A stretch of 64,000 nt of DNA, taken from contig OX597824.1 in assembly GCA_951406725.2 (NCBI GenBank), forward strand, positions 12,648,001 to 12,712,000, given 5' to 3'. Shown here in pieces: positions 51,039 to 54,000 of this stretch. Origin of the DNA: Octopus vulgaris. Lineage: Eukaryota. The notes beneath the pieces were generated by a model. The model did no database searches. It was not told the origin of the DNA and worked only from the letters and a program-made list of their open reading frames with translations. The stretch's first letter is position 1. Every line of letters begins with the position of its first letter. The position numbers were made by a program, and so were the translations under genes.

Positions 51039-54000
51039 CTACAAATAAAACAGACGATATAAAATATATAGCATAATTAAATGTGATAGAATATAAAGTT
51101 TACATTTTGATAAAATATTATTAACTTTCTATTTTACAATGATTAAATTTAAATATCATAGCTCTTGTAATATTTCAACCTATAAAATATTTCCTAGGCA
51201 AAAGTTTTAAGAGAAACTTTATCAATAATTAAGATAACATAAAGAGGTAAAGTTTTGCTAATAGAATGATGATTAATTTTAGGTGAGCAAAAGACTAAAC
51301 TTTTGTAAGAAAGTATAAAGAAGTAATAAGAAGCTGTAGACTATTGCTATTTTATTGACCCTCAAGTGACAGCTGCCTAAGAACGATTCAAAGCTGGAGG
51401 CTGTAAGCTAACAAATAAGGTTTTAGCTTTTACCTAGCAAATTGACCTCGTGGGATCCTTAAACAGGATACCTTAATCTCCAAATGACACATTGCGATAA
51501 TAAAAAAGAAGGCACCATCAATAAAACGATGTTATTGTTTTCCCTCCTGATCGAAACGGTCGCAGCTGGAATAGGCCTGTTCTATAATTAAAATCGATTT
51601 TAATTATACTTACCCAAAGAGAAAGGCATATAAGCCTCATTTTTCTTTAACTCATTATTTTCTCCAATCCATCTCTCAGGTCGGAATTCCTCTGGTTTAT
51701 CCCAATACTTCGGATCATAATGAGCAGCCATTAAATTGAATTGAACGATAGTATTTTTTGGAATATCATAACCTCCCAGTGTTGTGTCTAGTACAGAGGC
51801 ATGTGGAACTGTGAGTGGAGCTGTTAAAAGAATTTTTCTCAATATTAACTACGTTGAGAGAAATGATAATTTGATGTAGACTGTTTTACTATTGTCATAA
51901 AAGAGTATTATGTTTAGTGATGTAACATTGTAGTGCCAGGTTATGAGTTTATGTTGCTGTAAAACTGGGTTTCGTTTTGGGAAGCTGACCTAATATTATA
52001 TTGAAATGATGTAAAATCGTTATGTAACAATATGGATTTCAGATGATATGAAATTGTATATGTAAAACTGCAAATATAATGTAAATGCTTAATTCTTTGT
52101 AATAGACTTCACTTCTTTGATGCTCCTAATAATTTGATATCCATATTATATGCGTAATGATTTATTTTGTTCTCCCCTTTATGCTGAAATCATTTCGTTA
52201 TTGGACAAATTTTGTGGCAAAAAAATACAAATTATGGCGTGTGGAATAGCTTCCCTTTAGCAATAAAAGTTATGTCACTGCTTGCTTACCAACAGGAGCA
52301 ATTCTCTGGACTTCAAGTAGAGTCGCTGCAACGTATGTCAAGTGTCGTTTATCTTCCATTGTGACAGGTCTATTTAGATCGGTGATCTGAAATTAATATC
52401 TATATTTCATTAACACTATATTACGGAGGTGTACTTGCATAGCAAGTGATTTGATCTGAGATCGTGTGCTGGAACGAAAACAATTGCAGCCTGGAAGGTG
52501 TTTGTAAGCCATTTAAGAAACACACAAAAGCCGTTCGATTCACTTCAACATTTAAGTTTAATTTGTCAAAATATTTTCGTCGCTATAAGACCGCGACCTG
52601 TTCACACACACACACACACACACACACACACACACACACACACACACACATATATATATATATATATATATATATATATATATGTACTCAAAATAAGCAA
52701 CAAGAATGACTCCGGTAATTTGGTACAATCGTTTCGTACTACATCATTTTATTAAATGTTGTAAGTATTACAACATATTTAAGATGCTGAGTACTCATCA
52801 GCCAATTATAGAGGTTTTCCATTAATACAAAAATTTTCAAATCAAGTGGCAACATTATAGAGAAGGTATATATATATATATATATATATATATATATATA
52901 TATATATATATATATATATATATATATATATATATTTATATATATATATATATATATATATGTATATATTTATCAAAATAAAAACACGATGCATAGGATT
53001 TAGCGGTACATATGTTTCTGGCTTTTATTAGACGGTTTATATCAATGCATAATTGATGTAATTTGTATGTCAATAGCCTTCTTCAGCCGCGTACAATTAC
53101 TACTCCAAGGACATGTATTAGATTATAAGTTTGGGAAAAAGACGATTTACGTTGGAGATGCAAATCCTCATAGTCGTGTGCAATTATCAAGTATTCACCC
53201 TGAATTTTTTGTACCCAACTATATATATATATATATATATATATATATATATATGCGCGCGCGCACGTGTGTGCAATCTAGTCATTCTTAATACGTTCGC
53301 GTATATACGAATATGGTTATGCTAATCTCTTGTATTTCTGATTCGGAGAACACATCCTTTCAGAGGAATGTGTATTCACAATGTGGAAGTGGGACTTTGC
53401 GACACTGCAATGTTTCGGTCTGGTTACGTCTCTTCCGCCAAAGCTAGCTCTAAATCAATGATCTAGACAAGAAAACTGGCTCATCTTTAGGGAATAAATT
53501 GTTCTCAGGCAGCGAAATACGAGAGCAATTAGTATATTTACGTTTAAATCTGTCGAAACATATGTATGTATATATATGTGTGTGTATTCACACACACACA
53601 CACACACACACACACATACTCATTTTACTCTTTTTTTACTTGTTTCAGTCATTTGACTGCGGCCATGCTGGAGCTCCGCCTTTAGTCGAGCAAATCGACC
53701 CCGGAACTTATTCTTTGTAAGCTCAGTACTTATTCTATCGGTCTCTTTTTTGCCGAACCGCTAAGTGACGGGAACGTAAACACACCAGCATCGGTTGTCA
53801 AGCAATGCTAGGGGGACAAACACAGACACGCAAACACACACATACATATATATATATATATATATATACATATATACGACAGGCTTCTTTTAATTTCCGT
53901 CTACCAAATCCACTCACAAGGCATTGGTCGGCCCGGAGCTATAGCAGAAGACTATATATAAAGGATAAGACCATTATTCAGAATAGCGATCATATCAAGT

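What the first reader, a model, noticed from the sequence alone, without database searches (positions are those of the whole stretch)
52720..52805. Canonical CUGAUGA hammerhead on the sense strand of CYP gene C intron 5
Seen: a perfect core with 4-bp stem I (UUGG/CCAA), stem II extended by a 9-bp hairpin, and a GUA cleavage triplet. It lies about 330 nt upstream of the exon 6 acceptor on the transcribed strand. The sister copy at 16534-16619 has a different inner hairpin sequence (CTGTAA/TTACAG versus TTGTAA/TTACAA), which looks like covariation. Inference: co-transcriptional self-cleavage could affect splicing or output of this P450, although minimal hammerheads usually need to dimerise.
Basis: partly seen in the sequence, partly recalled or inferred. 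Interest (0 to 1): 0.7.

Follow-up and report, generated by a model that had tools for sequence, protein, structure and literature searches.

The report
Long-armed transposon hammerhead in P450 intron
A complete self-cutting-RNA motif (hammerhead) does sit in an intron of an octopus P450 gene, but it is the leftover tail of a jumping gene with hundreds of near-identical copies, is predicted to cut only with an identical partner that it lacks here, and so likely does little to the gene.

Summary
The motif is real: intact type I hammerhead core, sense strand, intron 5 of an 8-exon octopus CYP2-like gene, cut site 337 nt before exon 6. It is not a gene-specific device. It lies in a 182-nt 3' end (pseudo-LTR) of a Hydra-clade Penelope-like retrotransposon inserted in a (TA)n tract: 732 exact pattern matches genome-wide, 98% identical repeats flank an RT plus GIY-YIG frame elsewhere, and three paralogous introns lack it. 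Stem III is a 2-bp palindromic stub (pair probability 0.01), the known dimer-only type. A second, missed hammerhead of another family lies 285 nt upstream but is not predicted to pair with it. Copies do not start at the cut site more often than at a control site. The unusual part is stem II: 59 nt (51-61 in related families) against 12-26 nt in published Hydra elements, covarying at its base and holding AATAAA/ATTAAA in 14 of 15 rows, 24 nt before the cut. The scan already noted this long-armed class on other DNA. Cleavage was not tested. Effect on the P450 is unlikely (about 10%).

The parts
52720..52805 (-). Type I hammerhead of the finding (core 52801-52795, GAAA 52735-52732, predicted cut after 52724)
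   Evidence: Rfam Hammerhead_1 aligns at 16 bits, below its 34-bit cut-off, with a 51-nt loop insertion
52736..52794 (-). 59-nt stem II arm with apical hairpin 52776-52756
52748..52753 (-). AATAAA inside the arm, 24 nt before the predicted cut; candidate poly(A) signal of the element (inferred)
   Evidence: kept in 86 of 88 copies; AATAAA or ATTAAA in 14 of 15 rows of related families
52725..52732 (-). Palindromic stem III stub ACGAUUGU (dimerisation surface; commonest family form ACGAUCGU)
52687..52868 (-). 5'-truncated 3' end (pseudo-LTR fragment) of a Hydra-clade Penelope-like element, between TA tracts
   Evidence: 98.3% and 97.8% identical to the two repeats that flank the RT-endonuclease frame in L031
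52869..52965 (.). (TA)n tract between the two element ends; target of insertion
52970..53183 (-). End of a second repeat family, 75-78% like the 3' end of a more distant Hydra-type family, with its own intact hammerhead (core 53086-53080, 61-nt arm, cut after 53007)
   Evidence: (1456 candidates, best others 93-97%)
52291..52386 (-). Exon 6 of CYP gene C (K-helix exon)
56053..56190 (-). Exon 5 of CYP gene C (I-helix exon; 5' limit approximate)
16470..16649 (+). Sister subfamily copy (90% identical), hammerhead 16534-16619, antisense in intron 2 of CYP gene A
16127..16470 (-). Inverted partner of the sister copy; core changed to CUGUAGA; runs on into the element's 5' leader

Best explanation
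The motif is an intact type I hammerhead core carried in the 182-nt 3' end of a high-copy Penelope-like retrotransposon that sits in a TA repeat of the P450's fifth intron; it is predicted to cut only as a pair with an identical copy, has none on this transcript, and so is likely a near-silent passenger that leaves with the spliced intron. Shown: core, repeat family, link to an RT plus endonuclease frame, position. Inferred: the fragment arose by target-primed reverse transcription that began about 37 nt past the cut site and stopped after about 180 nt; in the parent element two repeats on one RNA pair through their palindromic stem III stubs (probably helped by the element's protein) to trim the RNA; the long arm likely serves the element (for example as carrier of its poly(A) signal), not the host gene.
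For: Repeat: 2052 first-look candidates, 40 scored, all 40 best matches 97-100%; 732 exact matches of a 23-nt pattern, reversed control 0; 2820 cores with exactly a 59-nt arm, control 1. Ends: of 33 distinct full-length copies, 22 run into (TA)n right after the motif and 11 continue into the leader of a next unit. Parent: L031 has repeat-frame-repeat with RT and C-terminal GIY-YIG-like pieces; relatives with open frames of 930-1072 aa carry the same kind of hammerhead and the Hydra motifs RW[K/R], DKT, CxCx5C, CxxC, CxH (against PMC8557442 section 11). Not a conserved gene feature: neither element end is found in intron 5 of paralogues A, B or D (3 of 3); the copy differs by 1-2 of 107 nt from 18 of 87 other copies. 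Weak monomer: stem III pair probability 0.01, active fold 3.1 kcal/mol above the minimum, homodimer of the stub -5.8 against -10.0 kcal/mol for the commonest form. No partner: duplex with the upstream family's stub 0.0 kcal/mol, cross pair probabilities 0.0001 or less. No footprint of cutting: 10 of 922 copies start at the cut site, 8 of 719 at a control site 14 nt upstream (Fisher p = 1); 5 of 21 long loci read (L031, L107, L109, L110, L125) keep an intact hammerhead upstream of the frame. Literature: single metazoan PLE hammerheads showed no cleavage, dimers low cleavage (PMC4209133); an Anolis PLE hammerhead cut only with the element's protein (PMC11167929 passages); slow intronic ribozymes had no effect on splicing (Fong 2009 as cited in PMC10919898).
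Against: No cleavage assay exists for this long-armed form; the arm could supply tertiary contacts that make a monomer active, which nearest-neighbour folding cannot see. The copy is intact and sense, and so is its neighbour at 53086: two of two in this intron. Stem I probability depends on context (0.01-0.03 in 181 nt, 0.11-0.19 in 94 nt, 0.48 in 107 nt). The tandem fold is dominated by the (UA)n hairpin and may hide alternatives. Partners could come in trans from other transcribed copies. The family's core is intact in 77 of 88 copies (chosen by similarity, not a random sample). No tree was built, so the clade rests on motifs; Pfam gave only a weak GIY-YIG match (E 0.064, below cut-off) and no RT family.
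Confidence: 0.82

Rival explanations
1. Transposon end that does lower P450 output, but through its poly(A) signal rather than the ribozyme: AATAAA at 52753-52748 (and 53029-53024) with a U/GU-rich stretch behind it would end some transcripts in intron 5, before the K-helix and heme exons.
For: AATAAA or ATTAAA in 14 of 15 rows of related families, at 23-26 nt before the cut (17 nt in the distant families), against 2-29% per arm in shuffles; kept in 86 of 88 copies. Sense orientation.
Against: Intron 5 holds 10 such hexamers on the sense strand; the arm is A/T-rich and the rows are related. The hexamer lies in a folded arm. Contigs of two runs (RNA by guess) join exon 6 to an exon-5 end of the gene C type and to exons 7 and 8, though it is not known whether those animals carry the insertion. 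No poly(A)-joined contig was among the loose ends shown (39 rows not shown).
Confidence: 0.08
2. One reading: the hammerhead cuts the nascent pre-mRNA (as monomer, with the upstream hammerhead, or in trans) often enough to tune splicing or output of the P450.
For: Intact core, sense strand; second intact sense hammerhead 285 nt upstream; 6 of 8 stub positions could pair across the two families (read from the sequences); precedent for an intronic ribozyme acting on its mRNA in Cpeb3 (PMC10919898, abstract and passages).
Against: Stem III 0.01, cross-family duplex 0.0 kcal/mol, cross stem I only 2-3 bp. Only 337 nt to exon 6, a few seconds at the mammalian elongation rate quoted in PMC10919898 (octopus rate not known). 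Missing from 3 of 3 paralogues. No excess of copies starting at the cut site.
Confidence: 0.07
3. The motif is catalytically dead even in the parent element and is kept only as a folded protein-binding or processing structure.
For: No cut-site footprint among copies; one contig of run X6 bridges the cut site of a family copy with 31 or more letters on both sides (record 25; RNA is a guess); in PMC11167929 core mutants did not hinder insertion in vitro.
Against: All core letters and the G-U-A-C of the cut site are invariant in 15 of 15 rows whose arms have diverged, and the stub stays palindromic.
Confidence: 0.03

Closest known systems
Hammerheads in pseudo-LTRs of Hydra-clade Penelope-like elements (Craig et al. 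2021, PMC8557442; seen: passages, section 11, supplement rows incl. File S2 table and Hydra-1_Obim)
   Same: Type I core, 4-bp stem I, 2-4-bp palindromic stem III, near the 3' end, (TA)n target, C-terminal endonuclease, RW[K/R], DKT, CxCx5C, CxxC and CxH motifs, inverted 5'-truncated partners.
   Different: 12-26 nt between CUGANGA and GAA in all 26 Hydra rows of File S2 (counted) against 59 nt here and 51-61 in related families; frames of 930-1072 aa with Asn-rich inserts and units above 3 kb. A similar length (about 54 nt) is listed only for the plant element PLE-X1_sMoe, marked as deviating.
Minimal PLE hammerheads of metazoans (Cervera and de la Pena 2014, PMC4209133; seen: parts 1-2 of 4 and passages; supplements not read)
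   Same: Short stem I, unstable palindromic stem III, most copies dispersed and single, predicted dimer requirement.
   Different: Their helix II is 6-8 bp; here an irregular arm of about 23 predicted pairs with a candidate poly(A) signal.
Intronic host ribozymes: CPEB3 (PMC10919898, abstract and passages) and amniote intronic hammerheads (PMC6765202 passage; names HH9/HH10 recalled)
   Same: Self-cleaving motif on the sense strand of an intron upstream of an acceptor.
   Different: Those are single-copy and conserved across species (recalled), and CPEB3 is active as measured; this one is a young high-copy repeat with a stub stem III, missing from paralogues.
Metazoan non-LTR retrozymes (bioRxiv 10.64898/2026.07.22.740005, part 1 of 5; PMC7229834, search listing only)
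   Same: Type I hammerhead related to PLE repeats.
   Different: No head-to-tail tandem units here; the parent encodes RT and endonuclease.

Membership tests
Type I hammerhead ribozyme | Core CUGANGA, GAAA, NUH with stems I, II, III in type I order | tested here: met
Type I hammerhead ribozyme | Stems supported by covariation | tested here: met
   15 rows: 89.3% cells paired against 77.0 +/- 1.4 shuffled (0 of 500) and 26-51% when slid; stem I 100% with 3 of 4 pairs changed on both sides; but pairs-with-double-change 10 against 9.0 (188 of 500), and rows are related
Type I hammerhead ribozyme | Rfam RF00163 gathering score | tested here: not met
   16 bits against 34, E 0.28; the 51-nt loop is modelled as an insertion
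Type I hammerhead ribozyme | Stable stem III that allows monomer activity | tested here: not met
   pair probability 0.01 (prediction only)
Type I hammerhead ribozyme | Site-specific self-cleavage | not testable with these tools
   no assay; only contigs, no raw reads, were offered
Penelope-like element, Hydra clade | Repeat-ORF-repeat with hammerhead in the repeats; inverted truncated partners | tested here: met
   L031, L109, L110, L125; window 16127-16649
Penelope-like element, Hydra clade | RT followed by C-terminal GIY-YIG endonuclease | tested here: met
   (YRDD; Y..YxG endonuclease motif read from the alignment); Pfam GIY-YIG only E 0.064 and no RT family
Penelope-like element, Hydra clade | RWK, DKT, CxCx5C linker, CxxC and CxH around E/N, no CCHH | tested here: met
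   Searches (L108, L110, L111; L031); RWK in L110, RW plus another residue in the others
Penelope-like element, Hydra clade | Insertion into (TA)n | tested here: met
   22 of 33 distinct full copies end in (TA)n, the other 11 continue into a next unit
Penelope-like element, Hydra clade | Generally under 3 kb (typical, not strict) | tested here: not met
   unit about 3.5 kb in L031, about 4.6 kb in L109/L110/L125
Penelope-like element, Hydra clade | Placement in the clade by RT phylogeny | not tested
   no tree built; published Hydra proteins were compared only by eye with supplement passages
Host-domesticated intronic ribozyme | Single copy, shared by paralogues or orthologues | tested here: not met
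   732 pattern matches; absent from 3 of 3 paralogous introns; orthologues in other species not available
Non-LTR retrozyme | Head-to-tail non-coding units each with a hammerhead | tested here: not met

The most novel reading that the evidence does not exclude
In octopus Hydra-clade elements stem II has grown into a 51-61-nt arm that presents a poly(A) signal 17-26 nt before the ribozyme cut, so that self-cleavage and polyadenylation act on, or compete for, the same 3' end; thousands of copies then seed host introns with combined cut-and-terminate cassettes, and the two sense copies in this P450 intron trim its output.
Probability: 0.12. Interest if true: 0.65.

Novelty: new variant of a known kind. 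Interest (0 to 1): 0.28.

Why it matters
As a locus it is ordinary: a transposon tail in an intron. As a class, a hammerhead with an arm two to five times longer than in described Hydra elements, missed by Rfam at its cut-off and present in at least 2820 copies, gives a testable handle on the open question of what PLE hammerheads do (trimming, 3'-end formation, protein binding). If sense copies did cut or terminate host transcripts, they would be a large unrecognised source of expression variation in octopus genes; nothing found here shows that.

Tried and rejected
Pattern with a 10-40-nt stem II found nothing because the arm is 59 nt. Whole-window Rfam showed no hammerhead among the 150 of 166 rows displayed. 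Heterodimer with the upstream hammerhead: not supported by folding. Copies starting at the cut site: 10 of 922 against 8 of 719 at a control site (one of the 8 is an internal deletion, so 7; no enrichment either way); only junctions preceded by TA were counted. Sequencing runs: no RNA holder listed on record, only contigs with RNA as a guess, so no read ends, strand or level; depth over the motif comes from many copies and says nothing on this locus. Whether other animals carry the insertion could not be read, as the flanks are long simple repeats. Lunse et al. 2017 (PMC5785218) is not held; its dimer result is cited only through the review PMC6765202 (passages). Paper searches for a long-armed or octopus PLE hammerhead listed none that describes it, judged from listings; supplements other than that of PMC8557442 (4 of 15 look-ups, parts and passages only) were not read and could hold such motifs. 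Pfam did not name the RT. Rows dropped: 12 duplicate rows of 100 before the counts; row L057 in the 15-row alignment was cut 5 nt short and lacks 3 stem I cells. Searches of earlier findings near this place and by sequence returned nothing.

Full report
Observation. The minus strand at 52805-52720 reads as a complete type I hammerhead: stem I UUGG/CCAA, CUGAUGA, a stem II closed by GUACU/AGUAC, GAAA, the stub ACGAUUGU and a GUA triplet with the predicted cut after 52724. A descriptor with at least 4 bp in stems I and II finds three motifs in the window (16538 plus, 52801 minus, 53086 minus) and none in 100 of 100 dinucleotide shuffles. Rfam's Hammerhead_1 aligns to it but scores 16 bits against a cut-off of 34, because 51 nt of the arm are an insertion; in the whole-window scan no hammerhead was among the 150 of 166 rows shown.

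Host gene. A window exon found full-length CYP2-like proteins named for Octopus species. P0002, named cytochrome P450 2B4-like of Octopus vulgaris by its source, matches gene C exon by exon: exons 3-8 at 58902-50860 on the minus strand, exons 2 and 1 beyond the window. The motif is in intron 5 (3666 nt, GT..AG), sense, 337 nt before the acceptor at 52387. Contigs of runs X2 and X6 (RNA is a guess of the tool) join exons 6, 7 and 8 across CT..AC skips and carry a loose end at 52388 that equals the end of exon 5 in genes C and D but not A; X2's contig has no difference from gene C over exons 6 and 7. Whether those animals carry the insertion is unknown.

What it is. The 182 nt around the motif (52868-52687) are a dispersed repeat: 2052 candidates, the 40 scored all 97-100% identical; 732 exact matches of a 23-nt pattern with 0 for the reversed control; 2820 cores spaced by exactly 59 nt, control 1. 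Of 33 distinct full-length copies, 22 end in (TA)n just past the motif and 11 run on into the same next sequence. Two copies 3.5 kb apart in L031, 98.3% and 97.8% identical to the window fragment, flank a broken frame for a reverse transcriptase and a C-terminal endonuclease. The RT piece finds 150 scored matches in the genome; 20 were fetched, and several hold open frames of 930-1072 aa between or beside hammerheads of the same build. Their proteins show RW[K/R], DKT, YRDD, CxCx5C, CxxC and CxH and no CCHH, the features given for the Hydra clade of Penelope-like elements (PMC8557442 section 11; its supplement lists an octopus member). No tree was built, and Pfam gave only a weak GIY-YIG match. 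The window piece is thus a 5'-truncated 3' end; the pair at 16127-16649 is the usual inverted arrangement, with the intact copy antisense to gene A and the sense copy broken in the core.

Covariation. The stub changes are also what CpG decay would give, so they count for less. Across 15 rows from related families 89.3% of cells pair against 77.0 +/- 1.4 in shuffles (0 of 500) and 26-51% when slid; stems I and III pair in 100%, the stem II base in 89.3%, the apical hairpin in 79.8%; the count of pairs with double changes (10) does not exceed shuffles (188 of 500). The structure is kept by the element's lineage; this says nothing about selection at the P450.

The unusual part. The distance from CUGANGA to GAA is 59 nt here and 51-61 nt in 15 of 15 rows, against 12-26 nt in the 26 Hydra rows of File S2 of PMC8557442; one plant element there reaches about 54 nt. 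AATAAA or ATTAAA lies in the 3' side of the arm in 14 of 15 rows, 17-26 nt before the cut, and in 86 of 88 close copies. Paper searches listed none on this form.

How it likely works. In the monomer stem III has pair probability 0.01 and the active fold lies 3.1 kcal/mol above the minimum; the stub pairs with itself at -5.8 kcal/mol, weaker than the commonest family form at -10.0. The minimum-energy folds of the 96-nt and 183-nt pieces are not the hammerhead. This is the dimer-only build of metazoan PLE hammerheads, for which single motifs showed no cleavage and dimers little (PMC4209133); one PLE hammerhead cut only with its protein (PMC11167929). A second intact sense hammerhead lies at 53086-53007, in the end of another repeat family (1456 candidates; 75-78% like the end of a more distant Hydra-type family). 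It could in principle be a partner, but the stubs differ (duplex 0.0 kcal/mol) and swapped stems I give 2-3 bp; cross pair probabilities are 0.0001 or less, in a fold dominated by the (UA)n tract. If cutting were common in the element's RNA, copies might start at the cut: 10 of 922 do, against 8 of 719 at a control site (p = 1), and 5 of 21 long loci keep an intact hammerhead upstream of the frame; re-ligation could hide cutting. Neither element end occurs in intron 5 of paralogues A, B or D. With 337 nt to exon 6, only a fast ribozyme would be expected to matter (PMC10919898 passages citing Fong 2009).

Verdict. Observation confirmed; regulatory reading not supported but untested. Best explanation: near-silent 3' end of a Hydra-clade Penelope-like element (0.82). 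Rivals: premature polyadenylation (0.08), real co-transcriptional cutting (0.07), a motif dead even in the parent (0.03). Class: new variant of a known kind, for the long arm. Interest 0.28.

Noticed in passing
window 53086-53007, minus: Second intact hammerhead (61-nt arm, stub ACAUAUGU) of another repeat family, sense in the same intron, 285 nt upstream of the finding.
   Followed up: yes
window 4050-4350: Inverted pair of a third hammerhead-bearing repeat (17-nt stem II, 928 candidates) in intron 5 of gene A, about 160-200 nt before exon 6; the 5' arm of stem I (CCAC in relatives) is lost at the inversion junction. Different elements entered TA tracts at the same end of intron 5 in two paralogues.
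   Followed up: partly
window 12521-12827: Short inverted pair of element ends like the L109/L110 families, truncated inside the hammerhead, in intron 4 of gene A.
   Followed up: partly
window 52417-52600: Very high-copy repeat between the hammerhead and exon 6 (summed contig depth about 2 million in run X16); no second copy in the window; not identified.
   Followed up: no
window 2382-28783 minus, 37804-47720 plus, 50860-58902 minus; L032-L034, L036: Tandem cluster of at least five 8-exon CYP2-like genes; L033 also has an extra exon 1 copy with a stop (2074-1703) 1.3 kb upstream of gene C's exon 1.
   Followed up: partly
L107, L108, L109, L110, L125: Hydra-type elements with open frames of 930-1072 aa, long Asn-rich inserts after the RT and near-identical terminal repeats: probably recently active families, longer than described Hydra elements.
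   Followed up: partly
L114:5070, L120:6081, L126:6402: Further hammerheads with arms of 31-55 nt; in L114 part of the 3' side of the arm is deleted.
   Followed up: no
window 59382-60215 and 56590-57320, minus: Frames that look like decayed Tc1/mariner transposases in introns of gene C (resemblance recalled; not searched).
   Followed up: no
window 20033-23300 and 40590-41007: Pieces that look like LINE (RT/endonuclease) remnants; 40590-41007 is 94% like the flank of L031.
   Followed up: no
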